Source of the DNA: a phage
Assembly: GCA_037431425.1 (NCBI GenBank)
Contig: GCA_037431425.1_4129.1
Strand: one strand, 5' to 3'
DNA: 64,000 nucleotides
In this document: one piece after another, positions 5,093-45,137 of the stretch
How positions within the stretch are numbered: position 1 is the stretch's first letter
How the letters are laid out: each line of letters begins with the position of its first letter
Translations under genes and position numbers: made by a program
The notes under the pieces: model-generated
Told to the model about the DNA's origin: nothing
Database searches by the model: none
Seen by the model: only the letters and a program-made list of their open reading frames with translations

Positions 5093-5259
5093 CACACAAA
5101 GAATGGTTAGATGAACTAAAGTTCAAACATGATCATTTTGGCCTTGGTATACGCCAGAGTCATTATGATGTGTTAAAAGATAAACAACTTTTCAAATCAT
5201 TAGTACTTGATGAGGATAGTAATCACTGGTACATCTATGAGCTTGCGGTTAGAGATTAG
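5089..5259 (+). CDS. small protein of the MTHxEW family (56 aa)
   Basis: Manually found ORF below track cutoff; ATGA overlap at 5089; N-terminus MTHKEWLDE resembles the tandem ORFs at 6345-6831. Confidence 0.4.
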   Translation: MTHKEWLDELKFKHDHFGLGIRQSHYDVLKDKQLFKSLVLDEDSNHWYIYELAVRD

Positions 5260-5269
5260 AAGATATAGT

Positions 5270-5562
<293 letters not shown>

Positions 5563-6246: not shown

Positions 6247-6320
6247 CGGGGTATAGCACAATTGGATAGTGCAAGAGAATTCTAATCTCTAGGTTGGGGG
6301 TTCAAGTCCCTCTACCTCGG
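6247..6320 (+). tRNA. tRNA-Arg (anticodon UCU)
   Basis: Hand-folded: acceptor CGGGGTA/TACCTCG (one GU), D-stem GCAC/GTGC, anticodon stem AGAGA/TCTCT loop ATTCTAA, T-loop TTCAAGT. Confidence 0.75.
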
Positions 6321-6344
6321 CCTACTTCAATTAAAGGTTAAACC

Positions 6345-6509
6345 ATGACGCATGAAGAATGGATGAATGACATTAATTTTAGATATGCAGGTATCGGTAA
6401 CTGGAGAAAGTATCATTGGGAAATCATATCAGACCCAGCAGAATACGATAAACTTATGAATCATGAAGTGTATCCGTGGTTCTTTATTGAAATAATGGTA
6501 CGATTATGA
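6345..6509 (+). CDS. small protein, MTHEEWMNDINFRY family, copy 1 (54 aa)
   Basis: Manually found; SD aaaggtta; ATGA overlap with copy 2; near-identical N-terminus across three tandem copies. Confidence 0.5.
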   Translation: MTHEEWMNDINFRYAGIGNWRKYHWEIISDPAEYDKLMNHEVYPWFFIEIMVRL

Positions 6510-6666
6510 CACATGAAGAATGGATGAATGACATTAATTTTAGATATTCGGGTATCGGTAAATGGCTAAAGTATCATTGGGAATTCATTTCAGAGCCACA
6601 TCTGTATGATAAACTTATCAACGATTCTGCATATAAAATGTACTTAATTGAACTACTGGTACGAAC

Positions 6667-38214: not shown

Positions 38215-38484
38215 ATGTACGCATTGTATAATAAAGAAAAGAAACGATTTGCTAAGGTTGAAATTTCGATTGATACATTTGACATGTTGGAGTACTGTAT
38301 TGTAACGGATTTATATGCTAACTTGTATTACGTTCTTGATGACGTATCAGTACTGCAACGATTGCTTGAGAATTCCAAAAGTCAATGCCAGGGCATCTAT
38401 GATGGTTCATCTTATGAAACACCTGAGTGTTCCTACGGCTATCTGGACGGGTATGAGATTGTGAAGTTGGGGATTGTTGAATAA
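38215..38484 (+). CDS. hypothetical small protein
   Basis: Track ORF 38149..38484; ATG 38215 after ggagatt is preferred. Confidence 0.45.
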   Translation: MYALYNKEKKRFAKVEISIDTFDMLEYCIVTDLYANLYYVLDDVSVLQRLLENSKSQCQGIYDGSSYETPECSYGYLDGYEIVKLGIVE

Positions 38485-38496
38485 ATGGATTAAACA

Positions 38497-38910
38497 ATGA
38501 AGAAGTGTATCACGTGTAATATTGAAAAAGACATTAGTGAATTTGGTATAAGAAAAGATACTGGGAAACATAGAAATACATGCAAAGGTTGTAGTAATAT
38601 TACCAGTAAGAAAACCAGAAATAAAAAAACTGATGTCAAAAAACTTGAAGAAATCAAAAGAAAAAATAAAGATTTCATGTCCAGAGTTAAATCATTTTAT
38701 GGTTGTAGTATTTGTATGATGAAGTATCCAGAATGTTTAGACTTTCATCATCTTGATCCGAATATCAAAGAACATACACCAAGTTCTATGTTCAGTAAAA
38801 GTCGAGATGCTATCAAAGATGAAATTCGAAAGTGTATGATTCTTTGTTCTAATCATCATCGCATGGTCCATTCTGGAAGACTATGCTTAATTGAAAGAAA
38901 AAAGGGTTGA
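38497..38910 (+). CDS. HNH endonuclease-like protein (homing-endonuclease-like)
   Basis: Track ORF; CxxC...CxxC and DFHHLDP...CSNHHRMVH fit an HNH/zinc-finger motif. Confidence 0.6.
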   Translation: MKKCITCNIEKDISEFGIRKDTGKHRNTCKGCSNITSKKTRNKKTDVKKLEEIKRKNKDFMSRVKSFYGCSICMMKYPECLDFHHLDPNIKEHTPSSMFSKSRDAIKDEIRKCMILCSNHHRMVHSGRLCLIERKKG

Positions 38911-38936
38911 CTTCTGTCAGCCCTTTTTGCTATAAT
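38904..38936 (+). promoter_or_regulatory. PeSL-like module 4
   Basis: GGGTTGACTTCTGTCAGCCC + T5 + GCTATAAT; downstream roughly 25 bp identical to module 6. Confidence 0.65.
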
Positions 38937-38966
38937 CATTTCATCGAAGCTTGAGGATATTAAAAA

Positions 38967-39449
38967 ATGAACTACTTAGATTTGATTAACTCATATGTAA
39001 TTAGCCCATATATTAACGATGAAAGTATTAAATGTGTAGTATCAGTTGAGGATCACCCAACTGGTGCATTAAAACTATTTGGTGCAGGTCAAATTAACAA
39101 CCGCAACGGGTATACATTTGAATATTTACCATCAAGTGATAAGTTTGGATGTTATGACCACGAAACAAATAAGGGATATATTTGGGGAACACACTTAAGT
39201 ATTGCACAATCTTCGCTTTTCGAAGACCATAATGGGTATATGTGGCGATATTTAGGTGCAGTACTGCTTGATATCGCCCGTAGGTATAAGAAGTGTATAA
39301 CATTAACTTATACTCATACAAATGAATATAAAAACGAAGTTCAAGTTATTGATGAGGATTTTTTTAAAAATATTCCTTATATTGATTTTAACTGTCAAAA
39401 TGGTTATGCTACATACCCAGCAAGTTTTGAAGGTGAAAGATACTTTTAA
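38967..39449 (+). CDS. hypothetical protein
   Basis: Track ORF downstream of PeSL-like promoter; SD gagga. Confidence 0.6.
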   Translation: MNYLDLINSYVISPYINDESIKCVVSVEDHPTGALKLFGAGQINNRNGYTFEYLPSSDKFGCYDHETNKGYIWGTHLSIAQSSLFEDHNGYMWRYLGAVLLDIARRYKKCITLTYTHTNEYKNEVQVIDEDFFKNIPYIDFNCQNGYATYPASFEGERYF

Positions 39450-39541
39450 AAAGAGTTGATTTAAAATGTATAAGTGATATACTTATCATATCAAGACGAA
39501 ACAACAACCAACATGTAAACGCTACTAATTAGGAGACACAC

Positions 39542-39952
39542 ATGATCAACAAACATTTCGCAGTTTCCAAAACTGTAACCATCGATAATGAATGGGAAAT
39601 TACCATTCTAAATGATACGGCTCGTGGACTACTGGCAGAGAATATTCTCCAGAAGTATATTGACTGTGAATCTGAGTTGATCATTCATGAACGCACTAAA
39701 TTTCTTCTAATTGGTGGAAAGAAATGTAAAGTTCTGGTATTCACCGACAAAATGACTCGTGCAGATATCATTACTAAATTGGTTAGTTCTTCACGTCATC
39801 GTCCGGGTGTTAATAGATCAATTGATGAGATTAAAGAAATGAAGCCAGGTGATTTATTCATTGTTGCAGGGTTTGATTCAAAAACAAGAAAAATGAGTAT
39901 TTCAGAAATGTATACTAATGCTGAAATGCGTAACAAATTCTTTTCTAACTAA
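39542..39952 (+). CDS. hypothetical protein
   Basis: Track ORF; SD aggaga. Confidence 0.55.
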   Translation: MINKHFAVSKTVTIDNEWEITILNDTARGLLAENILQKYIDCESELIIHERTKFLLIGGKKCKVLVFTDKMTRADIITKLVSSSRHRPGVNRSIDEIKEMKPGDLFIVAGFDSKTRKMSISEMYTNAEMRNKFFSN

Positions 39953-39987
39953 TCAACCCATGTAGTGTAATCTTATACACATTTTAG

Positions 39988-41205
39988 ATGGATAAAAATA
40001 TGATCTTCGAAACTGAAAAAACATTACTTGAAACTTACACTTTGGATAATCTAGTTAAACTTAACCTTGAACGACCAGATATCCAACGCAATTGGCAATG
40101 GAAAAATAATAACCAAAACAATCTTATTATTTCCATTCTAAAGAATTCTCCAATTGGTCAATTTTTAGTATGGAATGAAACTAGTTCAAATACGATGTAC
40201 ATCACTGATGGTCGTCATCGCTATACAGTAATTTCAAACTTCATGAACAATAAATTCCCAGTCACTGTTAGAACTGAAGATGGGACTAAGGATTATTATT
40301 ATGGTTCTGATGATCCAGTAGAAGAAGAAAGCATTTCACTGAAACTTGGTGGAAAGCGTAAAACATGGGATTTTTTATCTAAAGAAGAGCGTGATGCTTT
40401 TCGTGCAAAGGAAGTATCAGTAACATTCGTTCATACAGACGATGCTGAAAAGATTTCAGATATGTTTATTGCAATTAATACTGCATCATCTAATCTATGT
40501 AAAGTTGATTTGTTAGTATGTAAGCACCACACAAATACATATATGAAACGTATTGATAAGCTATTTTCAATTGAGTTTGGCAAAGATGAACCCATGGCAG
40601 CATTAGTGAGTGATTTTTACCGTGCAATCGGTCATTGTTGTGTTAATGGTAATCATGAGAAACACTTATCGAAGCTTAAAGCTAACCCTAAAGTACAGAA
40701 GCGTGAATTTTTTGAAATGTTCTTTATGGTCAAAGCGTTCGCGAAATTATGTGCTAGTGCACTAGATGGTAAGCTAAACTCATACCGTATGCCAAAGATG
40801 AACCAACAAATTGAAGAAGCAATTATTAGTACTGAATCTCTTAGTGAGAAACATGCTGATGCTGATTTTGTTCAGTTTGTTAATGCAGTTCGTGAGATGA
40901 ATTTGGTATCACCTGTAAAATCTGCACAAAAATTTCAATTTATCCATGAAGATATGAAGAATACCTTTAATAAGAGACTCTTTTGTATTTTGATGGGATT
41001 GTTTTATGCTTATGGTACAAGATTGCCATTACATTTTCGTGATGTATGGGGTGACATTTATAATGAAATGTCAGAAAAAAGTTCAGAACTACCTACTAAT
41101 GGAACCGATAGTCCTTCCGCAATTTTAGCTGGCATTGAAATGATTGAACCATACTTTAGTTCAGCATTTAATAATATTCCATTGAGTGCTTACGTGGGAA
41201 AGTGA
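39988..41205 (+). CDS. DUF262/ParB-like nuclease-domain protein (GmrSD N-terminal-like)
   Basis: N-terminal PDIQRNWQW and DGRHR motifs resemble the DUF262 signature (QR..W and DGQQR); stop overlaps the GTG start of the next HNH ORF. Confidence 0.6.
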   Translation: MDKNMIFETEKTLLETYTLDNLVKLNLERPDIQRNWQWKNNNQNNLIISILKNSPIGQFLVWNETSSNTMYITDGRHRYTVISNFMNNKFPVTVRTEDGTKDYYYGSDDPVEEESISLKLGGKRKTWDFLSKEERDAFRAKEVSVTFVHTDDAEKISDMFIAINTASSNLCKVDLLVCKHHTNTYMKRIDKLFSIEFGKDEPMAALVSDFYRAIGHCCVNGNHEKHLSKLKANPKVQKREFFEMFFMVKAFAKLCASALDGKLNSYRMPKMNQQIEEAIISTESLSEKHADADFVQFVNAVREMNLVSPVKSAQKFQFIHEDMKNTFNKRLFCILMGLFYAYGTRLPLHFRDVWGDIYNEMSEKSSELPTNGTDSPSAILAGIEMIEPYFSSAFNNIPLSAYVGK

Positions 41206-41414
41206 AAAAACGTGGTGTACTAAATACACCACAAAAACAATATCTTTTGAAAAGATATTCTTTGTGTTATCTTTGTGGACAGAAGATATCGGATTCAGAT
41301 ATACTACATTTTGACCATGTTCAATCATTAAAAGATGGTGGTAGTAATGAATTAAGTAATATACGACCAACGCACTCCATTTGTAATTTACGTAAAGGTG
41401 CTAAGAGTATGTAA
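41202..41414 (+). CDS. small HNH endonuclease
   Basis: CxxC followed by HFDHVQSLKDGGSNELSNIRPTHSICNLRKG (HNH); GTGA overlap with upstream stop suggests translational coupling. Confidence 0.65.
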   Translation: MKKRGVLNTPQKQYLLKRYSLCYLCGQKISDSDILHFDHVQSLKDGGSNELSNIRPTHSICNLRKGAKSM

Positions 41415-41463
41415 AGCTAATACTCCCCAAAGATGGGGAGTATATATAATTAAAGGGATTTAT

Positions 41464-42300
41464 ATGAGTATTAAAAATAAATTAGATCAGTATTATACAA
41501 ATCCAGAGTATGCTAAAAAATGTTATACTAAATCATTAGAGTTTATTTCGTCTCGAATGGACATTAATTCATCTTATTATATGGAGCCTTGTGTTGGGAC
41601 TGGTTCGTTTTATCTACAGTTTCCTGAATCCCGTCGATTTGGGTGTGACATTGATCCGGTACATCTTGATGAAAATGTTATCCATTCCGATTTTTTACTT
41701 GAATTTGGTATCAATGCAAGAAGTAAAGGTGAACCAATACTTGTTATAAGTAATCCACCTTTTGGGAAAATTTCTTCTTTAGCCATTAAGTTTTTTAATA
41801 AATGTGCATCAATGCCTGAAGTGAAATATATTTGTTTTATTGTCCCTATGACATTTCGAAAAGCAGCAACACAAAATAAACTCAATGAGATGTTTCACCT
41901 GGTATTAGATGAAGATTCACCAAATGACGCTTTTATACTGCACGGAGAACCACATCATGTACCATGCGTATTTCAGATATGGGAACGTAGGGATACAGTT
42001 CGTGAGAAACATGAGATTAAGAACAAATCAGACTATTTCGACTATTGTACTAAGGAAGAGGCTGATGTTTTTATAAAACGTGTAGGAACCAAAGCAGGTG
42101 AGTATGCCGAGCCAGGGAAAGAACACAAAGATGCAAGTATGTACTACATTAAAACTAAGTATGTTGATGAAATCATTAAGGTTTTGAAAAGTAAAGATTA
42201 CCTTGATGAGATAAAACGTATACGTAAAACCACAGCAGGGGTATACTGTGTGTCCAAATCTGAAATCGTTCTTAATATTGAAAAACGTTTGAATCTTTGA
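41464..42300 (+). CDS. N6-adenine DNA methyltransferase (NPPF-type)
   Basis: Track ORF 41398..42300 trimmed to ATG 41464 with SD aaaggga; motif I EPCVGTGSF and motif IV SNPPFGK. Confidence 0.7.
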   Translation: MSIKNKLDQYYTNPEYAKKCYTKSLEFISSRMDINSSYYMEPCVGTGSFYLQFPESRRFGCDIDPVHLDENVIHSDFLLEFGINARSKGEPILVISNPPFGKISSLAIKFFNKCASMPEVKYICFIVPMTFRKAATQNKLNEMFHLVLDEDSPNDAFILHGEPHHVPCVFQIWERRDTVREKHEIKNKSDYFDYCTKEEADVFIKRVGTKAGEYAEPGKEHKDASMYYIKTKYVDEIIKVLKSKDYLDEIKRIRKTTAGVYCVSKSEIVLNIEKRLNL

Positions 42301-42308
42301 AAATTATA

Positions 42309-42340
42309 GGTTGACTTCGGTCAGCCTTTATTGTTATAAT
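42309..42340 (+). promoter_or_regulatory. PeSL-like module 5 (upstream of denV)
   Basis: GGTTGACTTCGGTCAGCC + TTTATTG + TTATAAT. Confidence 0.6.
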
Positions 42341-42368
42341 CATTTTATATAACCAAGAGGATGATTAC

Positions 42369-42872
42369 ATGACACGCATTAATTTAGTACACGTTAAAGA
42401 ACTTGCTGACCAACATTTGATGGCTGAATATCGTGAACTTCCACGGGTGTTCGGTGCTGTACAAAAACACGTTCAAGCACGTAAGCGTGTCCGTGATTTT
42501 AAAATTAACAGTACTTATCTGTTAGGTTCAGGCCATGTGACATTCTTCTACGACAAGTTACTGTACTTACAAAAGCGTCATGTTGAGATTGTTAACGAAT
42601 GTTTGCGTCGTGGTATGAAGATTCAAAACACGGAAGTAAACGACATCAGCGGCTTCCCTGATGAGTTTTGTAATGACTACGTACCATCGGAGTCAGAGAT
42701 TAAAATGTCTCGTGACCGTTTGATTGAGAAGCTCCAGATGAAGCCTAAGTGGTATAAGTTTACTGCTGTTGAAATTCCACAGTACGTTAAAGATATGCAG
42801 AACGTAAAATCTAGTACTGATATGTTCGAAGAAATTGAAGAGCAAATCAAAGATGAAATGAATAATTATTAA
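42369..42872 (+). CDS. denV: endonuclease V, pyrimidine-dimer DNA glycosylase/AP lyase
   Basis: N-terminal half [35 protein letters not shown]...[10 protein letters not shown] closely matches T4 DenV as recalled; flanked by PeSL-like modules. Confidence 0.9.
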
Positions 42873-42876
42873 AGGT

Positions 42877-42911
42877 AAGGGTTGACTTCGGTCAACCCTT
42901 TTTGCTATAAT
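42877..42911 (+). promoter_or_regulatory. PeSL-like module 6 (downstream of denV)
   Basis: AAGGGTTGACTTCGGTCAACCCTT perfect 10-bp stem + T-run + GCTATAAT. Confidence 0.65.
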
Positions 42912-42939
42912 CATTTCATCAACTACAGAGGGTAACGAA

Positions 42940-43713
42940 ATGAACCGTACAGAAAAAGCACTTCAAATCGAAAAAAACTTCAACTCCATGATGGCAGCAC
43001 TGGAATGTCTTCTGGATACGCAAACTAACTCCATCAATTCTTTGATTGTATCAGGAAAAGGTGGTGTTGGTAAAACTTACAACGTTGACCAGCGTTTACG
43101 GAAAGCGGATGATAACTTTGAAATTGACTACAAAAAAATCAGTGGTAAAGTAACTACTGTGGGTCTGTACGAAGCACTGTATCGTTCACGTCATGCTGCT
43201 TCTGTACTGTTGCTGGATGATGTTGATATCTTCTCTGATGAGACTAACATTGACTTACTCAAAGCTGTATTGGATACATCTGAAAAGCGTGTAGTATCAT
43301 ATGCAACATCTGCTAAGTACCTTGAACAGCAGGGTATTCCTAAGCAGTTTGAATTCCGTGGTAAGGTTATTTTCCTGACGAACAAAAACCTGTCACAGAT
43401 TGCTAAAGGTAAAAGTAGTTTAGCACCACACATCGATGCACTGATTACTCGTAGCATCTTTGTTGATCTGCAACTGTTTACAAATGAAGAAGTAATGATT
43501 CACATTGAAAATATTATGAACAAAACAAACATCCTTGAAAACAATGGTGTTAACAAAAATGGTTGCAAAGCAATTCTGAATTGGATGCTGAACAATGAAG
43601 ATCGTCTGCGTAGCCCATCACTGCGTATGCCAGTACTGATCGCTGGTTTGTATAATAAATTTCCATACGACTGGGAGTCTATGGCAGAGAATATGTTCCT
43701 TGAGAAAATTTAA
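42940..43713 (+). CDS. P-loop NTPase
   Basis: Walker A SGKGGVGKT and Walker B-like VLLLDDVD; SD gagggtaa. Confidence 0.6.
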   Translation: MNRTEKALQIEKNFNSMMAALECLLDTQTNSINSLIVSGKGGVGKTYNVDQRLRKADDNFEIDYKKISGKVTTVGLYEALYRSRHAASVLLLDDVDIFSDETNIDLLKAVLDTSEKRVVSYATSAKYLEQQGIPKQFEFRGKVIFLTNKNLSQIAKGKSSLAPHIDALITRSIFVDLQLFTNEEVMIHIENIMNKTNILENNGVNKNGCKAILNWMLNNEDRLRSPSLRMPVLIAGLYNKFPYDWESMAENMFLEKI

Positions 43714-43775: not shown

Positions 43776-44117
43776 ATGCTTGAGTTTTTTAATTCAAATA
43801 CAATGCTTGGTATTACTTTAATTTACATGTTTGTATTTTTGTTTTATCATTCAATTGTAATTAGTCTGTGGTATTTTAAAAGGAAAGTTGTTTTTAAATT
43901 GTATTCGTATGATAATGTATTCTTAGTTGTATATAGTATTGTACAAGGTGGGTTTATTTTATTTGGTATTATGACTTATTTCATTTATCGATTGGAAATT
44001 GATAATACACCACACATTACACAATATGTTGTGTTTTCGGGACTAATCGTGTGGTTGTTGACATGTGTCGTGTACTTTATTATTAAAGCTCGTGACAAAA
44101 TTAAAGGGGAATTCTAA
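43776..44117 (+). CDS. small two-helix membrane protein, RxKI family, copy B1
   Basis: Track ORF; first of eight tandem paralogs; C-terminal ARDKIKGEF. Confidence 0.55.
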   Translation: MLEFFNSNTMLGITLIYMFVFLFYHSIVISLWYFKRKVVFKLYSYDNVFLVVYSIVQGGFILFGIMTYFIYRLEIDNTPHITQYVVFSGLIVWLLTCVVYFIIKARDKIKGEF

Positions 44118-44455
44118 TGTTAACATTTTTTCAGTCAGATACAATGATTAGTATTACGTTGATTTATCTGTTTGGATTTTTCTTTTATCATGCACTAGTT
44201 GTAGTACTATGGTATTTTAAAAAGAATATAGTTTTCAAACTGTATCCTAAAGGAAACGTTTCATTACTTCTTTTCACTATTATCCAAGGTATCTTTGCAA
44301 TTTTTGGTATTACTGCACATTTAATTTATTGTGCTAATCCACATTTGAACTCAATATCACAATACATTGTATTTTTTGGATTACTAATTTGGGTACTAAT
44401 ATACGTAACTAATCTCATCATTAATGGTAGAGCTAAAATTCACGGGGACTTTTAA
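44117..44455 (+). CDS. small two-helix membrane protein, copy B2
   Basis: Tandem paralog; N-terminus nearly identical to B1; ATGA-type junction. Confidence 0.55.
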   Translation: MLTFFQSDTMISITLIYLFGFFFYHALVVVLWYFKKNIVFKLYPKGNVSLLLFTIIQGIFAIFGITAHLIYCANPHLNSISQYIVFFGLLIWVLIYVTNLIINGRAKIHGDF

Positions 44456-44802
44456 TGTTTGAATCTTATCTTGACTTTTTAAGGAATAGTCCAGTAGCAC
44501 ACTCACTTGCTGGGATTGTTCTATCAGGCTATATCACATTTTGGGTAGTTATGTTTCTAGGATGGTATTTTAAACGACAATTCTATAAGCGTAACGGTGA
44601 AGATTTTATGAATTCTGCTATTAATCAATCGTTGTTTGCATCAACATTGATAGCATCAATTGTAGCAACACTCACTGGTGCAGTTCTACCAGCATTCGCC
44701 GCAGTTTACGGCACACTTGGAGTGGTATGTTTATCTTTTATATTGATCATTAAACTTTGTTGTGTTATGATTGAACTTCGAAATAAGATACCGGAGGAAT
44801 GA
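44455..44802 (+). CDS. small membrane protein, copy B3
   Basis: Tandem paralog; C-terminal LRNKIPEE. Confidence 0.55.
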   Translation: MFESYLDFLRNSPVAHSLAGIVLSGYITFWVVMFLGWYFKRQFYKRNGEDFMNSAINQSLFASTLIASIVATLTGAVLPAFAAVYGTLGVVCLSFILIIKLCCVMIELRNKIPEE

Positions 44803-45137
44803 TGGAGTATTTTATTGATTTACTGCCGTGGTATATGAAAGTGAGTATTTTATACTATATTATTAGTACTGGATTCTACTTCCTGATGTGGTTTTTTAAA
44901 CGACCAATTTCAGTGTACATCGCTGATAACATGCTGCAATTAAAATTACAAGCATGGTTTTATATGGCGATGTTTATGCCTATTATTCACTACTCAATGA
45001 TTAGTCTAGGTTTACGTTCTAATGGTGAACCAATTGTATTAGTATTCTATTGGGCTTCAACTCTAGTATATGTCGGTTTGTTGTTATACCCAATCGTTCA
45101 TATATTACGTGCTAAAGTTCCTGATGCGAGGTACTAA
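44799..45137 (+). CDS. small membrane protein, copy B4
   Basis: Tandem paralog; C-terminal LRAKVPDARY. Confidence 0.55.
   Translation: MMEYFIDLLPWYMKVSILYYIISTGFYFLMWFFKRPISVYIADNMLQLKLQAWFYMAMFMPIIHYSMISLGLRSNGEPIVLVFYWASTLVYVGLLLYPIVHILRAKVPDARY

What the first reader, a model, noticed from the sequence alone, without database searches (positions are those of the whole stretch)
39988..42300. DUF262/ParB-like protein coupled to an HNH ORF, followed by an N6-adenine methyltransferase, in one cassette
ORF 39988..41205 carries DUF262-like motifs (QRNWQW, DGRHR). Its stop overlaps the GTG start of a 70-aa HNH ORF (GTGA), so together they resemble a split GmrSD-like modification-dependent nuclease. 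Directly downstream is a methyltransferase with motif I (EPCVGTGSF) and NPPF. The whole unit is bracketed by PeSL-like modules at 38904 and 42309. A phage-borne nuclease plus MTase could be a restriction-like inter-phage competition or anti-defence system; the DNA motif involved is unknown (AGTACT is one speculative candidate).
Basis: partly seen in the sequence, partly recalled or inferred. Interest (0 to 1): 0.8.

Follow-up and report, generated by a model that had tools for sequence, protein, structure and literature searches.

The report
Frameshift-joined phage nuclease with methyltransferase
A giant E. coli phage carries a DNA-cutting enzyme whose cutting domain appears to be attached only when the ribosome slips back one base at a conserved "slippery" site, and the gene sits next to a DNA methylase, so the unit looks like a phage-owned restriction-modification weapon with a built-in dose control.

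Summary
ORF 39988-41205 is a DUF262/ParB-like protein, 41202-41414 is an HNH domain, 41464-42300 is an N6-adenine-type methyltransferase, and PeSL-like terminator/promoter modules bracket the unit.

The "split GmrSD" reading misses the main feature. The DUF262 ORF ends in G_GGA_AAG, the phage lambda G/GT slippery heptamer, in the correct phase. A stop codon follows it, and the HNH frame is the -1 frame.

This signature is kept in all 8 lineages found, down to 22% protein identity. The shift window is only 13-31 nt. Two lineages have no start codon before the HNH zinc motif. The predicted 475-aa fusion aligns end to end, across the junction, with natural single-chain DUF262-HNH proteins (E 1e-48).

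Single-chain relatives on Lactobacillales plasmids sit directly after adenine methyltransferases and match a Type II restriction-enzyme model.

Best reading: an accessory cassette of Asteriusvirus-type and Mimasvirus-type jumbo phages, made of a small partner protein, DUF262-ParBDB, a frameshift-added HNH, and a methyltransferase. It probably acts like a restriction-modification system against unmethylated host or rival DNA. The frameshift itself and the target are inferred, not shown.

It is a new variant of known kinds.

The parts
38905..38936 (+). Upstream PeSL-like module: a G+C-rich stem-loop that contains the -35 box TTGACT, followed by an extended -10 box TATAAT. It is the likely early promoter of the cassette.
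   Evidence: The 18-mer repeat has 6 copies in the window against 0 expected. The promoter scan scores 11 of 12 matches at 38907-38936.
38967..39449 (+). 160-aa ORF of unknown function, the first gene of the transcription unit.
   Evidence: It has no family hit. It is conserved at 81% identity in metagenomic locus L003 only. Whether it belongs to the functional core is uncertain.
39542..39952 (+). 136-aa conserved partner protein, always directly upstream of the DUF262 gene.
39988..41205 (+). Zero-frame product (405 aa; possibly 401 aa if translation starts at ATG 40000): a ParB-like DUF262 NTPase domain plus a helical ParBDB-like DNA-binding domain. This is the 'short form' without a nuclease.
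41196..41202 (+). Slippery heptamer G_GGA_AAG, the proposed -1 programmed frameshift site. The zero-frame stop TGA follows at 41203-41205.
   Evidence: It is in the correct phase in all 8 lineages. It is identical to the lambda G/GT heptamer (PMC3296357). The codon choice xxG-GGA-AAG has probability of about 0.0075 per lineage.
41212..41232 (+). Hairpin GTGGTGTA-ctaaa-TACACCAC, 9 nt after the heptamer. It is a possible frameshift stimulator specific to this lineage.
   Evidence: Together with a second hairpin it folds at -16.2 kcal/mol, z -6.2. L003 keeps it with compensatory changes. It is not conserved in L005, L007 or GAP32.
41202..41414 (+). -1 frame extension that encodes a basic linker plus an HNH (beta-beta-alpha-Me) nuclease domain. 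Joined to 39988-41202 it gives the 475-aa 'long form'.
   Evidence: PF01844 at 1.1e-11. The -1 frame is open from the heptamer in all lineages. The distance from heptamer to CxxC is fixed at 21-23 codons. hhalign shows colinearity with single-chain DUF262-HNH proteins across the junction.
41420..41443 (+). Conserved hairpin ATACTCCCC-aaagat-GGGGAGTAT between the HNH stop codon and the methyltransferase ribosome-binding site. Its role is unknown.
   Evidence: It is present in L003 (with compensatory changes), L005 and L007. This was read by eye from the alignment; the automatic consensus fold recovered only 3 pairs.
41464..42300 (+). 278-aa gamma-class N6-adenine-type DNA methyltransferase, with motif I EPCVGTGSF followed by NPPF.
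   Evidence: PADLOC MTase_II at 5.7e-34. phrog_5172 at 1.7e-89. It is 69% identical to GAP32_519 and is annotated as a putative N6-adenine methyltransferase in ph0011.
42309..42340 (+). Downstream PeSL-like module: the terminator of the cassette and the promoter of denV.

Best explanation
The region is one early transcription unit of an Asteriusvirus-type jumbo phage. It is an accessory cassette that most members of the genus lack.

**Core.** A ParB-like DUF262 NTPase/DNA-sensor protein (DUF262 plus a ParBDB-like domain) has its HNH nuclease domain encoded in the -1 frame. Most ribosomes terminate at TGA 41203 and make the 405-aa nuclease-less form. A minority slip back one base on G_GGA_AAG: tRNA-Gly moves from GGA to GGG, and tRNA-Lys moves from AAG to AAA. 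These ribosomes continue through a basic linker into the HNH domain and make a 475-aa DUF262-ParBDB-HNH enzyme. That enzyme has the same layout as natural single-chain DUF262-HNH restriction-type nucleases.

**Proposed function.** The adjacent adenine methyltransferase marks the phage's own DNA. The armed enzyme, probably NTP-dependent and working together with the unarmed form and perhaps the conserved 136-aa partner, attacks DNA that lacks the mark, meaning host chromosome or co-infecting phages. The frameshift keeps the nuclease dose low relative to sensor and methyltransferase.

**Shown:** domain identities, cassette structure, conservation of the recoding signature, colinearity with single-chain relatives, and linkage to the methyltransferase.

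**Inferred:** that the frameshift happens and how efficient it is, that the nuclease is active, and that unmethylated DNA is the target.
For: **Recoding**
- The heptamer G_GGA_AAG is in phase at the end of the DUF262 ORF in 8 lineages, with DUF262 identity down to 22%.
- All 8 proteins end in an invariant Gly-Lys.
- The zero-frame stop comes 0-7 codons later, and the HNH domain is always in the -1 frame.
- The region open in both frames is only 13-31 nt.
- L012 and L013 have no ATG, GTG or TTG between the heptamer and the CxxC motif. L005, L007, GAP32 and L011 have none near the junction.
- The peptide KRG.LN..QK.Y is conserved with synonymous changes upstream of any start codon.
- The distance from heptamer to CxxC is fixed at 21-23 codons.
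- The specific codon choice has probability of about 0.0075 per lineage, or about 2e-11 for 5 deep lineages.
- The same heptamer drives about 4% frameshifting in lambda G/GT, with the stop codon just downstream (PMC3296357).
- A strong hairpin lies 9 nt downstream in the window.

**The fusion is the functional form**
- More distant relatives (P0016, P0026, P0043, P0066, P0074, P0101; 451-501 aa) are in-frame GmrSD_N...HNH(PF01844) proteins.
- The profile of the predicted fusions aligns with them globally across the junction: probability 100%, E 1.3e-48, 406 columns.

**Restriction-modification-like role**
- A methyltransferase of this family is adjacent in 6 of 8 lineages, including a rearranged order in L012.
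- The methyltransferase family occurs in 230 phage records, but the nuclease occurs in only 2 phages. This is the orphan-methyltransferase versus dependent-nuclease pattern.
- Single-chain DUF262-HNH genes on five Lactobacillales plasmids follow EcoRI-family adenine methyltransferases. In four plasmids they are directly adjacent; in the fifth an inserted optrA resistance gene separates them. They match PADLOC REase_II PDLC03418 at 1e-91 to 1e-130.

**Accessory status**
- The cassette is absent from 121Q and about 30 other Asteriusviruses, and it is bracketed by PeSL repeats.
Against: - No protein-level or ribosome-profiling data exist, so frameshift efficiency is unknown.
- The downstream hairpin is not conserved outside the window's sub-lineage.
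- In the window and L003 a GTG overlaps the stop codon, so some independent HNH translation cannot be excluded there.
- L011 and L013 show no adjacent methyltransferase in the DNA held.
- Between the window and GAP32 the methyltransferase is 69% identical but the DUF262 protein only 22%, so the two genes have partly separate histories.
- Biochemically characterised DUF262 nucleases (GmrSD, BrxU) cut modified DNA, not unmodified DNA, and they are the top structural matches.
- The methyltransferase's target motif is unknown.
Confidence: 0.6

Rival explanations
1. Frameshift-joined DUF262-HNH nuclease that works as a Type IV-like, modification-dependent enzyme. In this reading it excludes hypermodified competitors such as T-even phages. 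The neighbouring methyltransferase is an unrelated orphan anti-restriction gene that shares the cassette only by linkage.
For: - The top structural matches are BrxU and SspE.
- PADLOC hits are NsnA (Menshen) and PD-T4-2_A, and the Menshen system is reported to defend against T2, T4 and T6 (PMC12065111).
- The methyltransferase family is mostly solitary in phages, for example inside the replication module of Phapecoctavirus.
- L011 and L013 lack an adjacent methyltransferase.
- The methyltransferase and the nuclease diverge at very different rates.
Against: - A methyltransferase is adjacent in 6 of 8 lineages, although this family occurs in only about 0.45% of phage records.
- The linkage is kept even when gene order is rearranged (L012).
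- The HNH stop codon overlaps the methyltransferase start codon in GAP32.
- Single-chain DUF262-HNH(PF01844) relatives are the nuclease partner of methyltransferase pairs and match a Type II restriction-enzyme model.
Confidence: 0.25
2. Two separate proteins: a DUF262 subunit and a free 70-aa HNH subunit. The HNH subunit would be made by translational coupling at the GTGA overlap, and the two would assemble like the originally described GmrS/GmrD heterodimer.
For: - GTG 41202 overlaps the TGA stop codon in the window, ph0011, L003 and L004.
- One gene caller called the 70-aa ORF in L004.
Against: - The overlapping codon is GTA or GCC in GAP32, L005, L007, L011, L012 and L013.
- L012 and L013 have no start codon before the zinc-ligand CxxC motif.
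- The peptide upstream of the possible internal starts is conserved.
- The linker aligns with contiguous sequence of single-chain relatives.
- The founding 'split' GmrS/GmrD case was itself later reinterpreted as a fusion (PMC4619093).
Confidence: 0.07
3. A selfish mobile element. In this reading the DUF262-HNH enzyme acts as a homing-type endonuclease that spreads the cassette, together with the free-standing HNH gene at 38497-38910, into cassette-less relatives. The methyltransferase would protect the carrier's own target site.
For: - The cassette and the upstream HNH gene are jointly absent from 121Q.
- A similar free-standing HNH gene sits at the same relative position in GAP32.
- The cassette is bracketed by repeated PeSL modules that could mediate recombination.
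- Its distribution in the genus is patchy.
Against: - No known homing endonuclease has a DUF262 NTPase.
- Homing does not need a methyltransferase of broad distribution.
- This reading is not exclusive of the best explanation, because restriction-modification systems themselves behave selfishly.
Confidence: 0.06
4. A decaying gene: a frameshift mutation has split a former single-chain DUF262-HNH gene, and the HNH part is no longer made.
For: - Single-chain relatives exist.
- The HNH ORF is unannotated in ph0011 and GAP32.
Against: - The same frame relation and the same heptamer are kept in 8 lineages at 22-87% identity.
- The HNH catalytic and zinc residues are conserved, with synonymous substitutions.
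- Random frameshift mutations would not recur at one slippery heptamer.
Confidence: 0.02

Closest known systems
Phage lambda gpG/gpGT -1 programmed ribosomal frameshift (tail assembly chaperone)
   Same: - The slippery heptamer G_GGA_AAG is identical and encodes Gly-Lys in both frames.
- The zero-frame stop lies just downstream.
- The result is an abundant short product plus a rarer C-terminally extended product (PMC3296357).
   Different: - The gene is a DNA sensor/nuclease, not a tail chaperone.
- The extension adds a catalytic domain.
- Frameshifting here is predicted from conservation and has not been measured.
Single-chain DUF262-HNH(PF01844) nucleases paired with EcoRI-family adenine methyltransferases (PADLOC REase_II model PDLC03418; plasmids of Enterococcus, Leuconostoc, Pediococcus and Apilactobacillus)
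   Same: - The domain order is the same: DUF262, a helical middle region, then a C-terminal HNH.
- An N6-adenine methyltransferase gene is immediately adjacent.
- The profile-profile match is 99.4%, E 2.4e-20.
   Different: - They are encoded as one ORF without recoding.
- They are shorter (360-394 aa).
- The methyltransferase belongs to a different family (PF13651).
- They are bacterial and plasmid-borne.
- They have no small partner gene.
GmrSD / BrxU Type IV restriction enzymes (DUF262 + DUF1524)
   Same: - Both carry a C-terminal His-Me finger nuclease.
   Different: - The nuclease here is PF01844 HNH, not DUF1524.
- A methyltransferase is linked.
- The nuclease is joined by a frameshift.
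- The cassette is encoded by a lytic jumbo phage.
- Modification dependence is untested and not favoured.
SspE of the SspABCD-SspE phosphorothioate system
   Same: - It is a DUF262 nuclease functionally coupled to a DNA-modification module that marks self DNA.
- Its middle DNA-binding domain is homologous to ParBDB (PMC12065111).
   Different: - The modification is phosphorothioate, not methylation.
- The nuclease is DUF1524.
- It is a single chain.
- It is bacterial.
Menshen NsnA
   Same: The ParB-DUF262 plus ParBDB two-domain layout is shared. The PADLOC NsnA model matches residues 29-390 at E 2.6e-15.
   Different: - There is no NsnB ABC ATPase and no NsnC effector nearby.
- The effector here is an HNH domain added in cis by frameshift.
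Virus-encoded 'modify self, degrade the rest' strategies (T4 EndoII/EndoIV with hmC DNA; chlorovirus restriction-modification systems). This comparison comes from general knowledge and was not tested here.
   Same: A lytic virus carries both a DNA modification for its own genome and a nuclease that can attack unmodified host or rival DNA.
   Different: - The enzyme families are unrelated.
- No recoding is involved.
- The function here is inferred only.

Membership tests
-1 programmed ribosomal frameshift of the lambda G/GT type | X_XXY_YYZ slippery heptamer in the zero-frame phase | tested here: met
   G_GGA_AAG at 41196-41202. The phase is correct in all 8 lineages.
-1 programmed ribosomal frameshift of the lambda G/GT type | The -1 frame is open from the heptamer and encodes a conserved, functional extension, and the overlap window is short | tested here: met
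   The -1 frame runs into the PF01844 HNH domain. The overlap is 13-31 nt. The extension is conserved at the protein level with synonymous changes.
-1 programmed ribosomal frameshift of the lambda G/GT type | The signal is conserved among divergent homologs beyond what protein coding requires | tested here: met
   8 of 8 lineages use xxG-GGA-AAG, with probability of about 0.0075 per lineage from codon usage.
-1 programmed ribosomal frameshift of the lambda G/GT type | Downstream stimulatory RNA structure. This is optional and is not required in lambda. | tested here: inconclusive
   The hairpin is strong in the window (z -6.2) and in L003. It is weak or absent in L005, L007 and GAP32.
-1 programmed ribosomal frameshift of the lambda G/GT type | Both the short product and the trans-frame product are detected in vivo | not testable with these tools
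   This needs a western blot, mass spectrometry or ribosome profiling.
GmrSD family Type IV restriction enzymes | N-terminal DUF262 (ParB/Srx-like NTPase) domain with QR..W, DGxxR and F...N motifs | tested here: met
   [not shown]
GmrSD family Type IV restriction enzymes | DUF1524 (PF07510) His-Me nuclease domain | tested here: not met
   There is no PF07510 hit. The nuclease is PF01844 HNH.
GmrSD family Type IV restriction enzymes | Cleavage depends on modified bases, and no cognate methyltransferase is present | not testable with these tools
   The activity is untested. The context argues against it, because a methyltransferase is adjacent in 6 of 8 lineages.
Restriction-modification pair with a DUF262-HNH nuclease (PADLOC REase_II PDLC03418 type) | DUF262...HNH(PF01844) on one polypeptide | tested here: inconclusive
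   This is met only if the frameshift occurs. The predicted fusion is colinear with the family: hhalign 99.4%, E 2.4e-20. The window protein itself does not reach the PDLC03418 model. GAP32-like P0007 and P0008 hit it at about 1e-5.
Restriction-modification pair with a DUF262-HNH nuclease (PADLOC REase_II PDLC03418 type) | Adjacent co-oriented DNA methyltransferase | tested here: met
   The methyltransferase at 41464-42300 lies 50 nt after the HNH stop codon. It is adjacent in 6 of 8 lineages.
Restriction-modification pair with a DUF262-HNH nuclease (PADLOC REase_II PDLC03418 type) | The nuclease cuts unmethylated DNA, and the cognate methylation protects | not testable with these tools
   This needs toxicity-and-rescue experiments and in vitro cleavage assays.
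Menshen (NsnABC) | NsnA-like ParB-DUF262 plus ParBDB protein | tested here: met
   PADLOC NsnA at 2.6e-15, covering residues 29-390 of the protein and positions 68-379 of the 385-position profile.
Menshen (NsnABC) | NsnB ABC ATPase and NsnC effector encoded downstream | tested here: not met
   The downstream genes are the HNH extension and a methyltransferase. No ATPase or NsnC hit was found.
N6-adenine DNA methyltransferase (gamma class) | SAM-binding motif I (FxGxG-like) followed by catalytic (D/N)PP(Y/F) | tested here: met
   EPCVGTGSF is followed about 55 aa later by NPPF. PADLOC MTase_II at 5.7e-34. No Pfam model is above threshold.
N6-adenine DNA methyltransferase (gamma class) | Demonstrated m6A at a defined motif | not testable with these tools
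   This needs SMRT or nanopore methylome data.
PeSL-type promoter/stem-loop modules of T4-like phages | A repeated stem-loop that carries the -35 box, followed by a -10 box, lying between gene cassettes | tested here: met
   Six copies are in the window, and three carry an 11-of-12 promoter match. Homology to published PeSL sequences was not tested.

The most novel reading that the evidence does not exclude
Programmed -1 frameshifting is used here as a stoichiometry device for a virus-encoded restriction-like weapon. Most translation yields an unarmed ParB-like DNA sensor or clamp. A few percent yields the same protein carrying an HNH blade. The two forms co-assemble on DNA, so nuclease activity is dosed, and perhaps kept in check by the unarmed form, while the co-transcribed methyltransferase gets ahead in marking phage DNA. 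This would be the first recoding-controlled restriction-modification-type system. It would also extend lambda-type G_GGA_AAG frameshifting from tail chaperones to inter-genome conflict genes.
Probability: 0.3. Interest if true: 0.85.

Novelty: new variant of a known kind. Interest (0 to 1): 0.7.

Why it matters
**Recoding.** Conserved programmed frameshifts in phages are known mainly from tail assembly chaperones, with a few other cases such as dnaX and insertion-sequence transposases. My searches of the held paper library found no conserved frameshift that adds a nuclease domain to a DNA sensor.

**Annotation.** The finding explains why "split" DUF262/HNH gene pairs can be real rather than sequencing errors. 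It also corrects the public annotation of ph0011 and GAP32, where the HNH ORF is missing.

**Biology.** It suggests a simple solution to the restriction-modification establishment problem: keep the nuclease scarce relative to the methyltransferase. It points to a restriction-like module that lytic jumbo phages may use against host DNA or against rival phages, including close relatives that lack the cassette.

**Testability.** The prediction can be tested directly with one tagged construct and a synonymous heptamer mutant.

Tried and rejected
1. **Fusion sequence in the large tools.** I used the zero-frame protein and a local hhalign run instead.
2. **Natural in-frame fusions inside the close clade.** None was found. 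All 5 full-length relatives among 1.84 billion representatives end in ...GK. In-frame fusions exist only among more distant relatives.
3. **A universal downstream stimulatory RNA structure.** Rejected, because the hairpin is lineage-specific.
4. **IMG/VR scans with P0005, P0006 and P0008.** They found no relatives, and L015 was spurious.
7. **AGTACT as the methyltransferase motif.** AGTACT is enriched genome-wide, including in the 121Q region without the cassette, and only 2 sites lie in the cassette. No link was found.
8. **Rfam.** No credible RNA family was found in 38400-43000.
9. **PDB sequence search.** It gave nothing for the methyltransferase or the DUF262 protein.
10. **Transcriptional slippage.** The A6 run after the stop codon is not conserved, so I rejected it.
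Full report
**What the window is**

The 14 kb around the finding is 98.6% identical to Escherichia phage ph0011 (Asteriusvirus, 348 kb). It is about 87% identical, with large gaps, to some 35 other Asteriusviruses.

The stretch 38970-42370 is found only in ph0011. In all other relatives only the first roughly 60 bases of the query, the PeSL-like module, match. In phage 121Q the homolog of the gene ending at 38484 is followed directly by denV. There, both the free-standing HNH gene (38497-38910) and the whole cassette are missing. The cassette is therefore an accessory module in a hypervariable region.

**Checking the observation**

- The ORF 39988-41205 hits Pfam GmrSD_N/DUF262 (E 8.6e-18). 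The ORF 41202-41414 hits HNH PF01844 (E 1.1e-11).
- The third ORF has no Pfam hit. It matches PADLOC Type II methyltransferase models (E 5.7e-34) and phrog_5172 (E 1.7e-89). It has EPCVGTGSF followed by NPPF. Its real start is most likely ATG 41464, as annotated in ph0011 and conserved in GAP32.
- The 18-mer GGTTGACTTCGGTCAGCC occurs six times in the window, with none expected. At 38905, 42309 and 42880 it overlaps an 11-of-12 sigma-70 promoter match.
- The unit 38905-42309 has one such promoter at its head and none inside. It is therefore one transcription unit of five ORFs.

**The key finding: a conserved -1 frameshift signature**

Searching 50,697 phage records with the DUF262 protein found only ph0011 and Cronobacter phage GAP32 (22% identity). 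In GAP32 the gene lies directly upstream of a 69%-identical methyltransferase. Between those two GAP32 genes is an unannotated HNH ORF.

In both phages the DUF262 ORF ends ...GTG GGA AAG followed by a stop codon, and the HNH ORF is in the -1 frame. G_GGA_AAG is the slippery heptamer of the phage lambda G/GT frameshift. In lambda, about 4% of ribosomes slip and bypass a stop just downstream (PMC3296357).

I then collected every relative I could find.

- A word-indexed search gave three close homologs at 75-87% identity.
- A full HMMER scan of 1.84 billion representative proteins gave only five full-length relatives in total, so the family is very small. Every one of them ends in Gly-Lys exactly at the end of the profile.
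- DNA for eight lineages shows the same arrangement. The lineages are window/ph0011, L003/L004, L005/L006, L007-L009, GAP32, L011, L012 and L013.

All eight lineages share these features:

- G_GGA_AAG is in the zero-frame phase.
- A stop codon follows 0, 1 or 7 codons later.
- The -1 frame is open from the heptamer into an HNH domain.
- The region open in both frames is only 13-31 nt long.

Elsewhere that codon is GTA or GCC. L012 and L013 have no ATG, GTG or TTG anywhere between the heptamer and the CxxC zinc motif.

The distance from heptamer to CxxC is fixed at 21-23 codons. The peptide just after the heptamer (KRG.LN..QK.Y in the Asteriusvirus-like lineages) is conserved with synonymous substitutions, although it lies upstream of any possible internal start.

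Given a Gly-Lys terminus, the codon combination xxG-GGA-AAG has probability of about 0.0075 per lineage from this phage's codon usage. For five deeply separated lineages that is about 2e-11.

A stable hairpin starts 9 nt after the heptamer in the window. Together with a second hairpin it gives -16.2 kcal/mol, z -6.2. L003 keeps it through compensatory changes. It is not conserved in the other lineages, so it is at most a lineage-specific enhancer.

Pseudogenisation, sequencing error and simple termination-reinitiation do not explain this pattern. Programmed -1 frameshifting does.

**The fused product is a known kind of protein**

More distant relatives from the HMMER search are natural single-chain proteins of 451-501 aa. 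They have GmrSD_N at the N-terminus and PF01844 HNH at the extreme C-terminus. Six of the ten I sampled have this layout.

A profile of the eight predicted fusions aligns globally with these proteins: probability 100%, E 1.3e-48, 406 columns. The alignment runs straight through the frameshift junction and the linker.

**What it probably does**

Two lines of evidence favour a restriction-modification-like role over a GmrSD-like, modification-dependent one.

First, the linkage pattern.

- A methyltransferase of this family is adjacent in 6 of 8 lineages.
- In L012, where both genes are only 26-28% identical to the window's, the methyltransferase is upstream rather than downstream.
- In GAP32 the HNH stop codon overlaps the methyltransferase start codon.
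- The methyltransferase family occurs in 230 phage records, mostly alone, for example between primase and polymerase in Phapecoctavirus. The nuclease occurs in only two phages.
- This is the asymmetry expected when the nuclease depends on the methyltransferase.

Second, the bacterial relatives. On plasmids of Enterococcus dispar, E. faecium, Leuconostoc, Pediococcus and Apilactobacillus, a single-chain DUF262-HNH gene follows an EcoRI-family adenine methyltransferase. In four of these plasmids the two genes are directly adjacent; in E. dispar an inserted optrA resistance gene lies between them. These proteins match PADLOC's Type II restriction-enzyme model PDLC03418 over its full length, at 1e-91 to 1e-130. 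The phage fusions match that group at 99.4%, E 2.4e-20.

My working model has four parts.

- The methyltransferase marks phage DNA.
- The rare armed form attacks unmarked host or rival DNA. It probably works with the abundant unarmed form and possibly with the conserved 136-aa partner.
- The frameshift keeps the nuclease scarce.
- The target and the activity are inferences.

Several facts keep the Type IV-like alternative alive, at about 0.25.

- The characterised DUF262 nucleases cut modified DNA.
- L011 and L013 lack a visible methyltransferase.
- Between the window and GAP32 the methyltransferase and the nuclease diverge very unequally (69% against 22% identity).

**The small partner**

**Comparison and novelty**

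The closest known things are:

- the lambda G/GT frameshift (same heptamer and logic, unrelated gene);
- single-chain DUF262-HNH restriction-type enzymes with adjacent methyltransferases (same protein layout, no recoding);
- GmrSD/BrxU and SspE (same sensor fold, different nuclease domain);
- Menshen NsnA (same two-domain sensor, different partners).

It fails GmrSD membership on the DUF1524 criterion. It fails Menshen membership on NsnB and NsnC.

I found no report of a frameshift-joined DUF262 nuclease in three places:

- paper searches combining DUF262, HNH, GmrSD and frameshift terms;
- the PRFect frameshift-prediction paper;
- the GmrSD phylogenomics paper, which attributes closely spaced split genes to errors.

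The HNH ORF is unannotated in both public phage records. I rate this a new variant of known kinds, with interest 0.7.

**Limits**

- No expression data exist.
- The family is rare.
- The methylation motif is unknown.
- I could not inspect the neighbourhoods of the bacterial methyltransferase homologs, because the assembly server failed.

Noticed in passing
whole window (for example 184 AGTACT sites); also L010 (121Q), L002, L005, L011 and L013: The oligonucleotide bias is extreme. AGTACT occurs 184 times against about 22 expected from base composition (Markov z +5.8). GTAC has z +11. GCGC is completely absent (0 against 28 expected). GATC is at half its expected count. The bias is shared by relatives that lack the cassette, and GCGC is absent from every related locus, so it is a property of this phage group.
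   Followed up: partly
window 41420-41443: A conserved 9-bp hairpin ATACTCCCC/GGGGAGTAT lies between the HNH stop codon and the methyltransferase ribosome-binding site. L003 keeps it through compensatory changes (AGACTCCCA/TGGGAGTCT), and L005 and L007 also have it. It has no T-tract, so it is not a classical terminator. It may be a processing, stability or translational element (read by eye).
   Followed up: partly
window 38497-38910: A free-standing HNH endonuclease ORF (137 aa, phrog_2255 at E 1.9e-31) sits just upstream of the cassette. It is absent from 121Q together with the cassette. It is 48% identical to the N-terminal part of GAP32_516, which occupies the same relative position in GAP32. 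It may be a homing endonuclease that co-mobilises the cassette.
   Followed up: partly
L001 (ph0011) 6306-6565; L002 (GAP32) 5140-5361: The HNH ORF is not annotated in either public phage record, and most metagenome gene calls also miss it.
   Followed up: yes
L005 6197-6224: This lineage has a second in-phase slippery-like heptamer, G_GGA_AAC, 18 nt after the first and directly before the stop codon. A slip at either site enters the same HNH frame.
   Followed up: no
window 43776-45137 and onward: There is a tandem array of at least four paralogous ORFs of about 112 aa that look like membrane proteins. They are joined head to tail with overlapping stop and start codons. Their homologs in ph0011 and 121Q are annotated as hypothetical.
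   Followed up: no
window 29861, 32655, 33993, 38905, 42309, 42880: There are six copies of the same stem-loop/promoter module, exact or with one mismatch. They mark cassette boundaries and are plausible recombination points for module shuffling in this genus.
   Followed up: partly
window 41239-41259: A second perfect 9-bp hairpin (AATATCTTT-tga-AAAGATATT) lies inside the HNH linker coding region, right after the first hairpin. It is not conserved in L003.
   Followed up: no
L016 (Enterococcus dispar plasmid pK205-4b-C) 61-4699: On this 8.6-kb plasmid an optrA resistance gene is inserted between the EcoRI-family methyltransferase and its DUF262-HNH partner. The insertion splits what is an adjacent pair on four other plasmids.
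   Followed up: no
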